48,315 nucleotides of DNA from a virus (lineage: Duplodnaviria; Heunggongvirae; Uroviricota; Caudoviricetes): the IMG/VR virus record IMGVR_UViG_2565956711_000009, positions 1 to 48,315 of that record; one strand, given 5' to 3'. Of the stretch, positions 28,153 to 32,201 are shown piece by piece. The notes below the pieces were generated by a model. The model saw nothing but the letters and a program-made list of their open reading frames with translations. It was not told the origin of the DNA and did not search any database. Both the position numbers and the translations under genes were made by a program. How positions within the stretch are numbered: the first letter of the stretch is position 1; every line of letters begins with the position of its first letter.

Positions 28153-28962
28153 TCATCTCGTTACTTTTGAGAGAATGGAATCAGCCATAGACTCCTGTTT
28201 ATGGCATTCGGCGACCAACTCCTCAAATAGCGGCTGAAGTTGCTCATATGCCGCCGTTTTCTTTATCTCCGCAACAGTATTAACGCCCTCAATTACCGTT
28301 GAGAACTTAAGCCTGGCGTAACCTCTACCACCGCAGCGGTCGCAGGCTTTCATTACTGGAACGCCCTGGCGATCGCTTTCTGCCTTGTCCAGCACCTTAC
28401 CTTTGCCATGGCAGCGACACGAATTGCTGATAACGCCTTTTCCGTTACACGGCTTGCACTTAACTCGCACCACCTCACGCGCCTGTGTCCAGCTCTCCCA
28501 GTCGCTTGGGCGAACGGCACGCGACATTTTCGACCAGTAAGGCGGTTTCCCCCATGGGTATGAGACCTTGTTGGTAAACACTTGCGCCTCTGTAAATCCG
28601 CCACCATCACAGCAATCACATTTTCGAGTGCTGGCAGCACTTCTTGAATAATCCTGGTATGCAAAAGCGCAGAGAACCTTAAGCACGCCTGACCGAGCTG
28701 ATTCATCGAGTTCAGACAGTGCTCTGAATTTACCTGATAACTTACGTGCCTGCTCATAGAGTCTCTCCAGTGCTATATCTGGGCTGCTAATGCCGATTTT
28801 CGAGAGGTAAAGATCGAAACCAAACCCGCACTTGTGGCCAGCAAGGCCAAGCGCCGCCATAACGTCAGTGCCGGTGAGACTGTCTGATGCGGTTGCGCGA
28901 GGAGAGTCACTGAACATCGGTGATTTAGGCGCAAAGTATTTAGCGATTGATTCGAGGTTCAT
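28153..28962 (-). CDS. Q: Late antiterminator Q (phage-82 type)
   Basis: MNLESIAKYFAPKSPMFSDSPRATASDSLTGTDVMAA... matches recalled Q82 N-terminus; Cys-rich zinc motifs. Confidence 0.85.
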   Translation of the reverse strand: MNLESIAKYFAPKSPMFSDSPRATASDSLTGTDVMAALGLAGHKCGFGFDLYLSKIGISSPDIALERLYEQARKLSGKFRALSELDESARSGVLKVLCAFAYQDYSRSAASTRKCDCCDGGGFTEAQVFTNKVSYPWGKPPYWSKMSRAVRPSDWESWTQAREVVRVKCKPCNGKGVISNSCRCHGKGKVLDKAESDRQGVPVMKACDRCGGRGYARLKFSTVIEGVNTVAEIKKTAAYEQLQPLFEELVAECHKQESMADSILSKVTR

Positions 28963-30377: not shown

Positions 30378-30544
30378 GCAGATTTTCTCCTCGCCGCGAG
30401 TCGCAGCCATTTCTGATCCACCAGGCGGGCGGTGTAGCCCTTCAATGTTGGGATATCAGACGGCTTAATCGCGGGCTTACGCTTACGGCGCGCCGGAACG
30501 CGGAAAATTTCGTTGGTGATGACGCGGGATAGTGGAGTAGACAT
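30374..30544 (-). CDS. NinE-like small protein
   Basis: 56-aa ORF below the track cutoff ([30 protein letters not shown]...), ATGA-coupled to NinB stop; NinE assignment from memory only. Confidence 0.45.
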
Positions 30545-30999
30545 CACGCCTCCTGCTTATCGCGCAGCTGCTGGTATTCGCAACCGTTCGGAATTGTCAG
30601 GGCCAGACCGAACTGGGCGCACCACATTTCAACCTTCACCAGGAAGATATGCATTTCGCCTGTATCGAGGTCGGCGGTGTGGCGTGGCTCCCAGGTCGTG
30701 GTTTTCTCACCGGTGATGAAGTCGGTGTAGGTCACCTCTTCACAGCCGAGATAGGTTTTCTTGAGGTTGCGCTTAACCCACTCCGGAGTCGCGTCGGTAC
30801 GTCCGGAGCTAACCAGGTACTCGCTGATTTCCGTGTACCACATGTGGCTGAGCGCGTTCTGCGACAGGCTGCGCTTCTCGCGCCATGGCTTAACCTGAAG
30901 GCGGAAACATTGCCCGGCATCCAGCAATGGCTGAATCTGCTGGCCAATGGCCGCGAAGTTGCCGCGATGGAGTTTGATACCGTCTACTGGCAGAGTCAT
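30544..30999 (-). CDS. ninB: NinB recombination protein
   Basis: 151 aa; synteny within nin region. Confidence 0.7.
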   Translation of the reverse strand: MTLPVDGIKLHRGNFAAIGQQIQPLLDAGQCFRLQVKPWREKRSLSQNALSHMWYTEISEYLVSSGRTDATPEWVKRNLKKTYLGCEEVTYTDFITGEKTTTWEPRHTADLDTGEMHIFLVKVEMWCAQFGLALTIPNGCEYQQLRDKQEA

Positions 31000-31009
31000 A
31001 CGGCCTCCT

Positions 31010-31215
31010 TAATGGAAACCGCAGAATGCAGAAAATCGCAGGTGCATTTCTGCATCTGTGACAAGGTGAGAAGTTCATATTGTGGTCGCATTTAAGTCCC
31101 CTTAAATGCGCAGAAGTCACTGACGGGTGTTCAGGCCGTCAGTACAGATAGTATGGACGGTTGATTCAACAAAATCAACGCAAGAGAAAGGCCTCCGAAA
31201 AGGCCTGTTTCTTAT
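31010..31215. promoter_or_regulatory. Intergenic leader with consecutive stem-loops upstream of nin genes
   Basis: Inverted repeats ATGCAGAAA/TTTCTGCAT, CGCATTTAAG/CTTAAATGCG, CTGACGG/CCGTCAG, GTTGAT/ATCAAC, AGGCC/GGCCT. Confidence 0.4.
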
Positions 31216-31227
31216 GCGTCGGATGGG

Positions 31228-31476
31228 TTAGGCATCCGGCACCTTTAGCGCAGCTTCAGGAACGGTGTCAGCAATCCAACCGGAGCACTTCCTGCACCGA
31301 AAAACCGTTACACCATCCTGCGAATAAATAAACTGACCTATCACCTCGGGCTCTACATTCTCATCCGGATAAAACGGCCTCTTCCTGTCGGTGCGTCCGC
31401 ATGACTTCGGATGGGCGTTTAACTCGATGCTGATTGGCTCGCCGCAGCTGCATGTACCCTGGATGATTTCCATCAC
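31228..31476 (-). CDS. Small zinc-ribbon protein, unknown function
   Basis: 82 aa with CxC...CxxC pattern. Confidence 0.5.
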   Translation of the reverse strand: MMEIIQGTCSCGEPISIELNAHPKSCGRTDRKRPFYPDENVEPEVIGQFIYSQDGVTVFRCRKCSGWIADTVPEAALKVPDA

Positions 31477-32201
31477 TTCTCCTCCTTCTTCGCCAGCTCC
31501 CGCATGGCATCGCCATAACGTTCCATGCCTTTGGCAAGCGCCTGAGTAACCTCCTGCTGCGGTGCTGCTGGATACGCGCTACCTTCCTGACCTGGTTCAT
31601 TGCTTCCGGTGCATGCATTACGGTGGTCATTGGCATGAGGGCAGCGCTTGTTACCGCATTCAGGGCAAACGACGAAGCGCATGTCGGAAATGGTCACCGG
31701 GCGGCAGGTGCGGCACCAGCAATCAGGAGCGTTGAGAGCATCGCGCTCTGCAAAGATTTTCTCAGCGTCGATTTCAATGCCGGAGTTACGAATGGTTTCC
31801 ACCGCATCGCGCAACTTGTAAGCCGTCGTTACAGGTTTGGCACCCTGAAGCATTGCTGCGCGATAGGCGTTCCAGCCGACAGCTTTTCCGTGTTCAAACG
31901 CGCTGTCAAAGTCATCATCAATTTCCATCGCAGCGGGCACAGATACCGGCGCTGGCGGGGCGGTGTAAAGCGGCGTTACTTCTCGCAGCGGGTCGGCATA
32001 AGCATTGCCACTATCGAAGCTGACGTTGTTTTTTGCCCCGCCTCCTGACAGCAACCACGCCACCGGCTCCGCTTCGAGCGATGCCAGCGCTATACGCGCC
32101 ATCTCTTTGACAACGTCACAGTTTTTATTTCCTTCGCAATCATCCATCAAAAGCCAATCGTCATTGATTATTTCTTTAATCTTATCCCGTGAAAGTTCCA
32201 T
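31473..32201 (-). CDS. Hypothetical phage protein with C-terminal Cys/His cluster
   Basis: 242 aa; C-terminal CPECGNKRCPHANDHRNACTGSNEPGQ. Confidence 0.55.
   Translation of the reverse strand: MELSRDKIKEIINDDWLLMDDCEGNKNCDVVKEMARIALASLEAEPVAWLLSGGGAKNNVSFDSGNAYADPLREVTPLYTAPPAPVSVPAAMEIDDDFDSAFEHGKAVGWNAYRAAMLQGAKPVTTAYKLRDAVETIRNSGIEIDAEKIFAERDALNAPDCWCRTCRPVTISDMRFVVCPECGNKRCPHANDHRNACTGSNEPGQEGSAYPAAPQQEVTQALAKGMERYGDAMRELAKKEEK

What the first reader, a model, noticed from the sequence alone, without database searches (positions are those of the whole stretch)
31010..31215. Cluster of stem-loops in the leader upstream of the nin genes
Four to five consecutive inverted repeats fill the 230-bp gap before NinB, where lambda has the tR2 terminators removed by the nin5 deletion. 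Only the most upstream one has a T-rich tail, so the others may be processing or pause sites.
Basis: partly seen in the sequence, partly recalled or inferred. Interest (0 to 1): 0.2.

Follow-up and report, generated by a model that had tools for sequence, protein, structure and literature searches.

The report
Structured leader RNA heading nin genes
The stem-loops before NinB are real: the first is a lambda tR2-like terminator, and the rest form a widespread, conserved promoter-plus-leader cassette whose four RNA hairpins and 31-codon leader ORF probably keep NinB translation locked until the leader ORF is translated.

Summary
The 228-bp gap (31000-31227, sense = minus strand) holds five inverted repeats plus a sixth, and folds far better than shuffles (z = -5.96).

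Only the first repeat (31181-31213) matches lambda tR2. The rest is a portable ~180-nt cassette also found in phage 82 (orf33), phi80 (IR4), DLP12 (ylcH-ybcN) and in 3027 of 5426 complete E. coli genomes. It contains:
- a sigma-70-like promoter (TTGATT-17-CATACT) with a dyad;
- four RNA hairpins (A-D) with strong covariation (98.5% of cells paired, 25 of 35 pairs with double changes, slid controls ~30-38%);
- a 31-codon ORF whose stop overlaps the NinB start (ATGA).

Hairpin B buries the leader ORF's SD and AUG. Hairpin D buries the NinB SD. Hairpin C plus a U-run looks like an attenuator. In K-12, published Term-seq maps an RNA 3' end 6-7 nt after hairpin A.

No Rfam family matches. The promoter's start site, translation of the leader ORF, and the partner of hairpin A's conserved loop remain untested.

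Verdict: a new, uncurated member of a known kind, a leader ORF with translational coupling. Interest is moderate.

The parts
31181..31213 (-). I1: tR2-like intrinsic terminator, 14 nt after the stop codon (31228-31230) of the 82-aa ORF. The stem is AGGCCT/AGGCCT with flanking A-tract and U-tract, so it is terminator-like on both strands.
   Evidence: the repeat finder I1. Terminator scan hits on both strands. Folds at -18.9 kcal/mol, against -16.7 for lambda tR2, which has the same AGGCCT stem. Only 23 of 123 homologous leaders have a terminator in this position, so it is a separate module.
31150..31178 (-). Sigma-70 promoter-like element: -35 TTGATT at 31173-31178, a 17-nt spacer, and -10 CATACT at 31150-31155. 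Predicted start about 31143-31145.
   Evidence: The A and T at positions 2 and 6 of the -10 hexamer are invariant in 114 non-redundant leaders, and TTGATT and ATCA are >=90% conserved, while sequence upstream of the -35 is unrelated. The scan tool calls TTGATT-17-CATAAT (9 of 12) in K-12 and L004. The window's own CATACT scores 8 of 12, just under the tool's threshold. The start site is not confirmed experimentally.
31119..31143 (-). Hairpin A: an 8-bp stem (ACUGACGG/CCGUCAGU) with the conserved 9-nt loop CCUGAACAC, at the predicted 5' end of the transcript.
   Evidence: 8 of 10 model pairs show double changes and 96.8% of cells are paired. The loop is more conserved than the arms (0.35 against 0.76-0.93 bits). 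Frequent U.G pairs point to sense-strand RNA. In K-12, Term-seq 3' ends lie 6-7 nt after this hairpin, equivalent to about 31110-31111 here. Some genomes have 2-3 tandem copies.
31087..31110 (-). Hairpin B: a 10-bp stem (CGCAUUUAAG/CUUAAAUGCG) with an invariant GGGA loop. It buries the SD (AAGGGG) and the AUG (31089-31091) of the leader ORF. This is 'IR4' of phi80.
   Evidence: 9 of 10 pairs show double changes and 99.2% of cells are paired; 10 of 10 in the protein-anchored sample. Stability is -13.9 +/- 0.9 kcal/mol across 129 leaders, against -4.7 for shuffles, and the start codon is paired in 129 of 129.
30996..31091 (-). Leader ORF of 31 codons (MRPQYELLTLSQMQKCTCDFLHSAVSIKEAV), homologous to phage 82 orf33 and K-12 ylcH. 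Its stop TGA (30996-30998) overlaps the NinB ATG (30997-30999).
   Evidence: The ORF is intact, with an ATGA/GTGA overlap, in 129 of 137 distinct leaders and in 16 of 16 protein-anchored loci at 31-34 codons. Substitutions are spread evenly over codon positions (53/49/51) and the synonymous fraction is 0.31 against about 0.22-0.25 expected at random. So the frame is conserved but the peptide is not.
31030..31061 (-). Hairpin C: UC-A-CAG-A-UGCA GAAA UGCA-C-CUG-C-GA (31036-31061), with a GNRA loop and two conserved A.C mismatches, followed directly by the U-tract UUUUCU (31030-31035). It lies inside the leader ORF and is a candidate translation-sensitive attenuator or pause.
   Evidence: In the sample not selected on leader sequence, 7 of 7 pairs show double changes and 100% of cells are paired. 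Compensatory variants are seen. The scan flags it as terminator-like. The 8 nt after the stem hold 5.2 T on average, and the inner A.C mismatch is present in 75 of 76 leaders. K-12 Term-seq reports no 3' end here.
31026..31055 (-). It is a thermodynamically possible alternative to hairpin C in this window.
   Evidence: It is part of the MFE fold. On 106 leaders it shows no covariation beyond shuffles (265 of 500 shuffles are as good), and where it varies the pairs break.
31001..31021 (-). Hairpin D: CGGUUUCC / GGAGGCCG, which buries the NinB SD GGAGG (31004-31008) just before the NinB AUG (30997-30999). It lies inside the 3' end of the leader ORF.
   Evidence: 6 of 8 pairs show double changes and 99.2% of cells are paired, with many U.G pairs. 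Three unrelated sequence versions keep the pairing. Stability is -15.2 +/- 1.5 kcal/mol, against -7.6 for shuffles, and the SD is paired in 125 of 129 leaders.
30544..30999 (-). NinB/Orf-family gene of the YbcN type (PRK09741). It is the first gene controlled by the leader and is followed by NinE, a phosphatase, NinG and Q.
   Evidence: NCBIfam PRK09741, E = 1.5e-71. The neighbouring genes are identified.

Best explanation
The gap contains two separate things.

(1) Right after the upstream gene sits an intrinsic terminator, the positional and sequence counterpart of lambda tR2.

(2) Downstream of it lies a conserved, portable regulatory cassette that heads the nin operon in many lambdoid phages but not in lambda. 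The cassette starts with a sigma-70-type promoter-like element carrying a dyad, and encodes a structured leader RNA with these parts:
- Hairpin A sits at the predicted 5' end and has a conserved loop. It marks a stable RNA end, produced either by early termination or by blocking exonuclease trimming.
- Hairpin B (about -13 kcal/mol) buries the Shine-Dalgarno and AUG of a 31-codon leader ORF.
- Hairpin C, inside that ORF, is followed by a U-run and looks like a weak terminator. A ribosome translating the leader ORF would prevent it from forming.
- Hairpin D (about -15 kcal/mol), at the end of the leader ORF, buries the NinB Shine-Dalgarno.
- The leader ORF's stop codon overlaps the NinB start codon (AUGA).

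The most likely logic follows from these parts. NinB cannot be translated on its own. Ribosomes that translate the leader ORF melt hairpin D and re-initiate at NinB (translational coupling). How often that happens is set by how often hairpin B opens. The default state is therefore 'off', which fits the silence of the homologous DLP12 operon.

Shown: the repeats, the covariation of A-D on the sense strand, conservation of the ORF's frame and overlap but not of its peptide, the predicted burial of both ribosome sites, and the K-12 3' end after hairpin A.

Inferred: promoter activity, coupling, attenuation at C, and whatever opens B or binds the loop of A.
For: - Repeats and fold.
- tR2 comparison.
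- Homologues with authors' annotations: phage 82 (putative -35/-10, an inverted repeat marked 'possible regulator-binding site', and orf33 coupled to orf151); phi80 IR4; K-12 ylcH-ybcN.
- Prevalence: 3027 of 5426 complete E. coli genomes have a match.
- Covariation on 106 leaders aligned with model R1: 98.5% of cells paired, 25 of 35 pairs with double changes, 0 of 500 shuffles as good, slid controls 29-38%.
- Independent sample chosen by the NinB protein: 16 of 16 loci with >=63% identity carry the leader, with 97% paired, 30 of 35 pairs with double changes, and hairpin C at 7 of 7.
- Strand: U.G pairs are common (for example 56 of 106 at one pair of hairpin A, and 37, 67 and 35 in hairpin D). 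They would be A.C mismatches on the other strand.
- Leader ORF: intact with an ATGA/GTGA overlap in 129 of 137 leaders and 16 of 16 loci, with no codon-position bias.
- Burial of the start codon (129 of 129) and of the NinB SD (125 of 129), within narrow stability bands.
- Promoter-like element: invariant -11A and -7T, and the cassette's left boundary falls at the -35. The scan tool calls it in homologues.
- Term-seq 3' ends at 572349 and 572350, 6-7 nt after hairpin A (Adams et al. 2021, PMC7815308).
- The DLP12 operon needs an inserted promoter for adequate rusA expression (PMC4118853).
Against: - No experiment on this phage exists.
- The only mapped 5' end in the K-12 homologue (Cappable-seq, U00096.2:571565, weak score 2.9) does not fall at the predicted start. 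After my coordinate conversion (+777, from memory) it falls at the 3' edge of hairpin A, where no canonical -10 lies upstream.
- The window's -10 (CATACT) is weaker than the family consensus, and the scan did not call it.
- K-12 Term-seq reports no 3' end at hairpin C, so attenuation there is unsupported in that strain. Its U-tract is degenerate, however.
- I found no ribosome-profiling or tagging evidence that ylcH is translated.
- Nothing identified here explains how hairpin B is opened. It stays at -11 kcal/mol at 45 C, so it is not an obvious thermometer.
- The alignments used for pair counts were fitted to the model structure, and many sequences are closely related. Both factors inflate apparent support.
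Confidence: 0.55

Rival explanations
1. One reading: the gap is a spacer in the long pR transcript that carries a series of terminators, pause sites or processing sites (a tR2 cluster) overcome by antitermination, with no promoter and no coding function.
For: I1 is terminator-like and matches lambda tR2. Hairpin A coincides with an RNA 3' end in K-12. Hairpin C plus its U-run is flagged as terminator-like.
Against: Lambda lacks everything except the first hairpin. Hairpins B and D sit precisely over ribosome-binding sites. A 31-34-codon frame with a stop/start overlap is conserved. The -10 and -35 elements are conserved, with unrelated sequence upstream. Tandem copies of hairpin A in other genomes have no U-tails.
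Confidence: 0.15
2. The cassette is a small-RNA gene. A transcript of about 115 nt runs from the promoter to the hairpin C/U-run terminator, with a 5' stem-loop, a single-stranded CA-rich middle and a terminator. It acts in trans and perhaps also on its own read-through mRNA, as IsrK of Gifsy-1 does.
For: The architecture fits: promoter-like element, 5' hairpin, unstructured CA-rich stretch, then a hairpin plus U-tract. A precedent exists for a prophage RNA that is both an sRNA and a leader coupled through a small ORF (PMC4825925). A short RNA species does exist in K-12.
Against: The 3' end mapped in K-12 lies after hairpin A, not after hairpin C. No Rfam sRNA family matches. The element is not AgvB/AsxR, Pas, svsR or IsrK. 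The reading frame is conserved through the supposed terminator into the NinB start. No target is known.
Confidence: 0.15
3. The inverted repeats are DNA operators for regulatory proteins, as the phage 82 record suggests ('possible regulator-binding site') and as the phi80 record's 'IR4' may imply.
For: GenBank annotations. The dyad TTGAT-N8-ATCAA over the -35 and spacer is conserved at >=90% in positions where promoters are normally free to vary. That observation is best explained by protein binding.
Against: For hairpins A-D, the arms vary through compensatory changes while the loops of A and B stay constant. That is the opposite of what a sequence-specific DNA-binding site shows. Abundant U.G pairs would be mismatches in duplex DNA symmetry. 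The dyad occurs only once in the window, so no regulon is visible.
Confidence: 0.1
4. The region is conserved because it encodes a functional small protein (YlcH/orf33), and the hairpins are incidental.
For: An ORF of constant length with a plausible SD is conserved and is annotated in K-12 and phage 82. A short motif (DFLHSA) is fairly constant.
Against: Substitutions show no codon-position bias (53/49/51), and the synonymous fraction is near random. Three-codon replacements keep the RNA stem but change the peptide, for example QKC to LNG or AKV. There is no family hit. Covariation shows selection on RNA pairing.
Confidence: 0.05

Closest known systems
Lambda tR2 (intrinsic terminator between ren and ninB, removed by nin5)
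   Same: The first hairpin (31181-31213) holds the same position, directly after the last gene before ninB. It has the same AGGCCT stem and a U-rich tail.
   Different: Lambda has only this terminator in a 73-bp gap. The window adds about 180 nt of promoter-like element, leader RNA and leader ORF that lambda lacks. Termination was not measured here.
Phage 82 orf33-orf151 leader, E. coli K-12 DLP12 ylcH-ybcN, and phi80 IR4
   Same: This is the same element by homology. The covariance model scores 103 bits for phage 82 (L002) and 165 bits for phi80 (L001). It has the same order of promoter-like hexamers, hairpins, a small ORF and an overlap with the Orf-family gene.
   Different: Those records annotate a putative promoter, an inverted repeat and a hypothetical small protein. 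As far as I could find, none describes a four-hairpin RNA structure, burial of both ribosome sites, or a leader-ORF role. The window's variant has a different hairpin A stem, a weaker -10 (CATACT) and an adjacent tR2-like terminator.
IsrK-orf45-anrP of Salmonella prophage Gifsy-1 (PMC4825925)
   Same: It works similarly. A prophage leader whose small ORF has a sequestered ribosome site is translationally coupled to the downstream gene and has a terminator inside the leader.
   Different: There is no sequence or Rfam relationship, and the genomic position differs (next to antQ). In IsrK the short RNA opens the long one in trans. No such activity is shown here, and the short RNA detected in K-12 ends after hairpin A.
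Translation-coupled attenuators such as the pyrBI leader (from general knowledge)
   Same: A leader ORF runs through a terminator-like hairpin plus U-tract, so a closely following ribosome would suppress termination.
   Different: The U-tract is short (UUUUCU). No 3' end has been mapped there in K-12, and no regulatory codons or nucleotide-sensing pause are evident.
nut (boxA/boxB) and HK022 put antitermination RNAs
   Same: These are promoter-proximal RNA hairpins with a conserved loop in a lambdoid early operon. Hairpin A's loop contains GAACA, which resembles boxB pentaloops (from memory).
   Different: Hairpin A has a 7-9-nt loop, no boxA and no consistent closing pair. The motif does not recur in hairpins near pL or pR in this window. 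The element accompanies different Q families. Membership is not supported.

Membership tests
Intrinsic (Rho-independent) terminator, tR2-like (I1) | G+C-rich stem-loop immediately followed by a U-tract on the transcribed strand | tested here: met
   A stem of 7 pairs (4 G-C) followed by TTCTCTTG, called by the scan on both strands. It folds at -18.9 kcal/mol.
Intrinsic (Rho-independent) terminator, tR2-like (I1) | Position at the end of a gene, between the replication-side genes and ninB, as in lambda | tested here: met
   It starts 14 nt after the stop codon at 31228-31230. Lambda has its terminator between ren and ninB, with the same AGGCCT stem.
Intrinsic (Rho-independent) terminator, tR2-like (I1) | Measured transcript release at the site | not testable with these tools
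   This needs in vitro transcription or Term-seq on this phage.
Leader ORF with translational coupling | Small ORF conserved in frame and length, with its own SD and start codon | tested here: met
   129 of 137 leaders and 16 of 16 loci are intact at 31-34 codons. The SD AAGGGG lies 5-6 nt before the AUG.
Leader ORF with translational coupling | Stop codon overlapping or abutting the downstream start codon | tested here: met
   An ATGA or GTGA overlap is present in all intact leaders. In the window it is at 30996-30999.
Leader ORF with translational coupling | Downstream ribosome site sequestered in a structure that lies inside the upstream ORF | tested here: met
   Hairpin D pairs the NinB SD in 125 of 129 leaders at -15.2 +/- 1.5 kcal/mol, and it covaries. 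This rests on prediction only.
Leader ORF with translational coupling | Selection on the act of translation rather than on the peptide | tested here: met
   Substitutions are even across codon positions (53/49/51), and the synonymous fraction is 0.31 against about 0.22-0.25 expected.
Leader ORF with translational coupling | Demonstrated translation of the leader ORF, and dependence of the downstream gene on it | not tested
   No accessible ribosome-profiling or tagging data exist for ylcH. Reporter fusions are needed.
Sigma-70 promoter | -35 and -10 hexamers with 16-18 nt spacing, conserved across homologues | tested here: met
   The consensus is TTGATT-17-CATAAT (9 of 12), called in K-12 and L004. 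The -11A and -7T are invariant in 114 leaders. The window's own CATACT gives 8 of 12 and is not called.
Sigma-70 promoter | Primary transcript 5' end about 7 nt downstream of the -10 | tested here: inconclusive
   Cappable-seq lists only a weak TSS about 23 nt further downstream in K-12, after my coordinate conversion. The dRNA-seq paper is not held.
Transcription attenuator (terminator inside the leader, hairpin C) | Conserved hairpin directly followed by a U-tract | tested here: met
   Hairpin C covaries at 7 of 7 pairs. The next 8 nt hold 5.2 T on average. The scan flags it.
Transcription attenuator (terminator inside the leader, hairpin C) | RNA 3' ends mapped at the U-tract | tested here: not met
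   K-12 Term-seq lists 3' ends only after hairpin A. K-12's U-tract is degenerate, so this is weak evidence against.
Any curated RNA family (Rfam 15, including IsrK, AgvB, AsxR, STnc100, Esr41) | Covariance-model score at or above the gathering threshold | tested here: not met
   There are 0 hits in the whole window at gathering thresholds. Only chance-level hits to terminator-like models appear at E <= 10.
nut site (boxA + boxB) | A 5-bp stem with a GNRA-like pentaloop, preceded by boxA, and recurring downstream of pL and pR | tested here: not met
   Hairpin A has an 8-11-bp stem and a 7-9-nt loop. The loop motif is not found in hairpins elsewhere in the early region.

The most novel reading that the evidence does not exclude
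Hairpin A may be the docking site of an unidentified trans-acting factor, either protein or RNA. It sits at the very 5' end of an N-independent transcript, its CUGAACA loop is conserved while its stem drifts, and some genomes carry two or three tandem copies. The factor would gate transcription or translation into the nin-Q operon. That would be a previously unrecognised switch controlling recombination functions and, through read-through to Q, the timing of late-gene (and in Stx phages, toxin) expression, independent of N and nut.
Probability: 0.15. Interest if true: 0.7.

Novelty: new member of a known kind. Interest (0 to 1): 0.4.

Why it matters
If the model holds, a cassette present in more than half of complete E. 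coli genomes and in many lambdoid phages is a cis-regulatory RNA that keeps the first nin gene translationally locked, and possibly limits transcription reaching Q.

Three consequences follow:
- The annotated K-12 gene ylcH would be reclassified as a leader ORF rather than a protein gene.
- It would offer one possible contribution to the silence of the DLP12 ybcN-rusA operon, which needs an inserted promoter for adequate expression.
- It would add an uncurated structured RNA family with unusually clean covariation.

The promoter-like element downstream of a tR2-type terminator also raises a testable question: do these phages have an N-independent route into the nin-Q region?

Tried and rejected
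- Rfam at gathering and at permissive thresholds gave nothing meaningful.
- Known prophage sRNAs were checked and excluded by position or by lack of a model hit: svsR lies at the 3' end of cI; AgvB and AsxR lie 3' of PR'; Pas and STnc100; IsrK lies next to antQ.
- The long inverted repeat I3 shows no covariation as a conserved structure.
- nut/boxB reading of hairpin A: the loop motif does not recur in hairpins of the early region.
- A partner for hairpin A's loop: its complement is not enriched in the window.
- A regulon for the dyad TTGAT-N8-ATCAA: there is a single exact copy in the window. By inspection the FNR half-sites match but the spacing is wrong, and sigma-E and sigma-54 readings of the loop region fail on spacing.
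- Hairpin B as an RNA thermometer: it is still at -11 kcal/mol at 45 C.
- A long-range pairing between the A-B linker and hairpin C looked plausible in one genome but is absent in others.
- The phi80 genome paper and the K-12 dRNA-seq paper are not held.
- SMRT-Cappable-seq has nothing for this locus.
- No translation data for ylcH were found.
- The accessory ORFs behind the duplicated leader copy have no NCBIfam family.
Full report
**1. The observation**

The genes in this part of the window run on the minus strand. A YbcN-type NinB gene occupies 30544-30999 and the preceding 82-aa ORF ends at 31228. That leaves a 228-bp gap at 31000-31227.

The fold shows a sixth hairpin at 31001-31021.

The sense-strand RNA folds at -81.2 kcal/mol, against -54.2 +/- 4.5 for dinucleotide shuffles (z = -5.96, none of 200 as good).

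Two details need correcting. A second hairpin also has a T-rich tail. And 96 of the 228 bases form a small ORF, 30996-31091.

**2. The lambda comparison**

Lambda's ren-ninB gap is 73 bp. It contains one classic terminator, AGGCCTGC..GCAGGCCT followed by TTTTATTT. That position matches the published order pR-cro-O-P-ren-tR2 (PMC3640518).

The window's first hairpin, AGGCCU-UUUCGG-AGGCCU followed by UUCUCUU, starts 14 nt after the upstream stop codon. It uses the same AGGCCT stem and folds at -18.9 kcal/mol, against -16.7 for lambda tR2. I read it as the tR2 counterpart.

It is a separate module. Only 23 of 123 homologous leaders have a terminator-like hairpin at that position.

**3. The rest is a conserved cassette**

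blastn finds the region from about 31180 to the NinB start in phage 82, phi80, HK225, HK639, several Enterobacter phages and 3027 of 5426 complete E. coli genomes, including DLP12 of K-12.

The phage 82 GenBank record annotates four things there: a putative -35 and -10, an inverted repeat marked 'possible regulator-binding site' (my hairpin A), a 33-codon orf33, and its overlap with orf151. The phi80 record marks my hairpin B as IR4. RefSeq annotates the K-12 small ORF (ylcH) as a hypothetical protein.

I collected 137 distinct leaders from viral contigs, using two different sequence anchors. The conserved unit begins exactly at the -35 hexamer and ends at the start codon of the next gene. Sequence upstream of it is unrelated between phages.

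The next gene is either a YbcN-type gene (PRK09741) or a canonical NinB (PF05772). Lambda itself lacks the cassette.

**4. Promoter-like element**

The consensus is TTGATT, 17 nt, CATAAT. The A and T at positions 2 and 6 of the -10 hexamer are invariant in 114 non-redundant leaders. This holds even in classes whose upstream half is replaced, one of which has an extended -10, TGTTATAAT, at the same place. The hexamer also appears in every divergent leader from the protein-anchored sample.

The scan tool calls the element in K-12 and in a typical homologue. The window's own -10 is CATACT, which gives 8 of 12 matches and falls just under the tool's threshold.

A dyad, TTGAT-N8-ATCAA, covers the -35 and half the spacer. 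It is >=90% conserved, including spacer positions that promoters normally leave free. That suggests a bound protein. I could not identify one, and the dyad occurs only once in the window.

**5. Four RNA hairpins**

I built a covariance model from a homogeneous, gap-free seed with a hand-written structure. I then aligned 106 leaders to it. The pair counts on that alignment are:
- 98.5% of cells form standard pairs.
- 25 of 35 pairs show changes on both sides.
- 0 of 500 shuffles reach the observed values.
- Structures with the 3' partner slid by 1-3 columns pair in only 29-38% of cells.

Because those leaders were picked by leader sequence, I drew a second sample through the NinB protein, using one genome per species. 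All 16 loci with >=63% protein identity carry the leader in the expected place, with scores from 201 down to 25 bits. On that alignment 97% of cells are paired and 30 of 35 pairs have double changes. That includes 7 of 7 pairs in hairpin C, which my first anchor had partly fixed.

U.G pairs are frequent. Examples are 56 of 106 sequences at one pair of hairpin A, and 37, 67 and 35 in hairpin D. These would be A.C mismatches on the opposite strand, so the structure belongs to sense-strand RNA.

In hairpins A and B the loops are more conserved than the arms: 0.35 against 0.76-0.93 bits for A, and 0.02 against 0.45-0.49 bits for B. A sequence-specific DNA operator would show the opposite pattern.

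Two caveats apply. The alignments are fitted to the model, and many of the sequences are closely related.

**6. What the hairpins cover**

- Hairpin B (31087-31110) has an invariant GGGA loop. Its stem contains the SD (AAGGGG) and the AUG of the small ORF.
- Hairpin D (31001-31021) contains the NinB SD GGAGG and ends 1 nt before the NinB AUG.

Across 129 leaders, B folds at -13.9 +/- 0.9 kcal/mol and D at -15.2 +/- 1.5 kcal/mol. Shuffles give -4.7 and -7.6. The small ORF's start codon is paired in 129 of 129, and the NinB SD in 125 of 129. The narrow energy ranges, despite at least six different B stems and three unrelated D versions, point to selection on stability.

- Hairpin C (31036-31061) has a GAAA loop and two conserved A.C mismatches. 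It is followed directly by UUUUCU.

**7. The small ORF**

The ORF is intact, with its TGA overlapping the next gene's ATG or GTG, in 129 of 137 leaders and in 16 of 16 protein-anchored loci. Its length is 31-34 codons.

Substitution events are spread evenly over the three codon positions (53/49/51). The synonymous fraction is 0.31, against about 0.22-0.25 expected for random changes. Three-codon replacements change the peptide (QKC to LNG, AKV or LSG) while keeping hairpin C.

This is the pattern of a leader ORF. The frame and the overlap are selected, and the peptide largely is not. The stretch DFLHSA is fairly constant, but it coincides with the U-rich tract, so the two constraints cannot be separated.

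**8. Experimental anchors from the literature**

Term-seq in E. coli K-12 (Adams et al. 2021, PMC7815308) lists 'orphan' 3' ends at 572349 (LB, OD 2.0) and at 572350 (another condition). The printed flanking sequence places them at ..CUCCGGUGACUUCUG, 6-7 nt after hairpin A and 19 nt before the ylcH AUG. So the sense strand is transcribed, and hairpin A marks a stable RNA end. That end could arise by termination or by blocking 3' trimming. No 3' end is listed at hairpin C.

Cappable-seq (Ettwiller et al. 2016, PMC4782308) lists a single weak TSS at U00096.2:571565. With the +777 offset that I recall between the two K-12 genome versions, it falls at the 3' edge of hairpin A. That is about 23 nt downstream of the predicted start, and no canonical -10 precedes it.

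I cannot resolve this discrepancy. A 5' end buried in a stable hairpin, a roughly 34-nt product lost in library preparation, or reverse transcriptase skipping the hairpin are possible technical explanations. All three are conjecture.

The Orf-family paper notes that the DLP12 operon needs an inserted promoter for adequate rusA expression (PMC4118853). That fits a leader whose default state is off.

**9. Mechanism proposed**

Shown:
- a tR2-like terminator;
- a conserved promoter-like element;
- four covarying sense-strand hairpins;
- predicted burial of both ribosome sites;
- a conserved overlapping leader ORF;
- a 3' end after hairpin A in K-12.

Inferred: transcripts entering the leader, from the local promoter or from pR read-through, carry a NinB ribosome site locked by hairpin D. 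Only ribosomes translating the leader ORF unfold D and re-initiate at the overlapping AUG. Translation of the leader ORF is itself limited by hairpin B. Hairpin C with its U-run may terminate or pause transcription unless a ribosome follows closely. Hairpin A stabilises the 5' end, or stops a fraction of transcripts early.

What opens B, and what recognises the loop of A, is unknown. B remains at -11 kcal/mol at 45 C.

**10. Comparison with known systems and novelty**

No Rfam family matches. The element is not any of the characterised prophage sRNAs I could check.

It works most like other leader-ORF coupling devices, for example IsrK-orf45-anrP of Gifsy-1. Hairpin C's layout resembles translation-coupled attenuators such as pyrBI, which I cite from general knowledge.

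The DNA features were noticed by the annotators of the phage 82 and phi80 records (the phage 82 entry is X92588). I found no description of the RNA structure or of a leader-ORF role.

I therefore class it as a new, uncurated member of a known kind, of moderate interest. The open questions are the conserved loop of hairpin A, its tandem copies in some genomes and the dyad at the promoter.

Noticed in passing
L135 2277-2412 and 4588-4723; also L027, L136, L095, L110, L084: Some phage contigs carry the leader twice, about 2.3 kb apart. The upstream copy keeps the promoter-like element and hairpins A-C but lacks hairpin D and the overlap. It runs into a small hydrophobic ORF (MEIVMSWPKVVATVVAAMAVIIMVSIYWG), followed by accessory ORFs with no NCBIfam hit. 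The leader seems to act as a junction for inserted cassettes.
   Followed up: partly
L163, L164, L167 (about 100 nt upstream of hairpin B): Hairpin A is present in two or three tandem copies, each with a CUGAACA-type or CCGAACA-type loop and none with a U-tail. This suggests a multivalent binding site.
   Followed up: partly
L183 918 (K-12, U00096.2:571565): The only Cappable-seq TSS in this region is weak. After coordinate conversion it lies at the 3' edge of hairpin A rather than at the predicted start, with no canonical -10 upstream. This is unexplained.
   Followed up: partly
L183 848-877, minus strand (K-12 and phage 82): The dyad also yields a promoter-like match pointing the opposite way (TTGATT-18-TAGAAT). 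The upstream region is not conserved between phages, so this may be chance.
   Followed up: no
window 31036-31061: Hairpin C keeps two A.C mismatches at fixed positions while its paired positions covary. The inner mismatch is A.C in 75 of 76 pattern-matched leaders. This is an unusual conserved feature of unknown meaning.
   Followed up: partly
window 31228-31476 and 31473-32201 (minus strand): The two ORFs upstream of the terminator (82 and 242 aa) have no Pfam or NCBIfam family. Both carry paired CxxC motifs, which suggests zinc-binding modules.
   Followed up: no
window 31181-31213: The tR2-like terminator is symmetric, with an A-tract on one side and a T-tract on the other. It is called as a terminator on both strands, so it could also stop antisense transcription.
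   Followed up: no
window 31070-31078 and homologues: Codons 5-7 of the leader ORF often repeat the hairpin A loop motif in single-stranded form (CUGAAC, CAGAAC or UUGAAC, depending on the class).
   Followed up: no
window 28153-28962 (minus strand): The Q antiterminator here belongs to Pfam PF03589 and has a DnaJ-type CxxCxGxG zinc-finger match. By my recollection DLP12 and phage 82 carry a different Q type. If so, the same leader accompanies different Q types.
   Followed up: no
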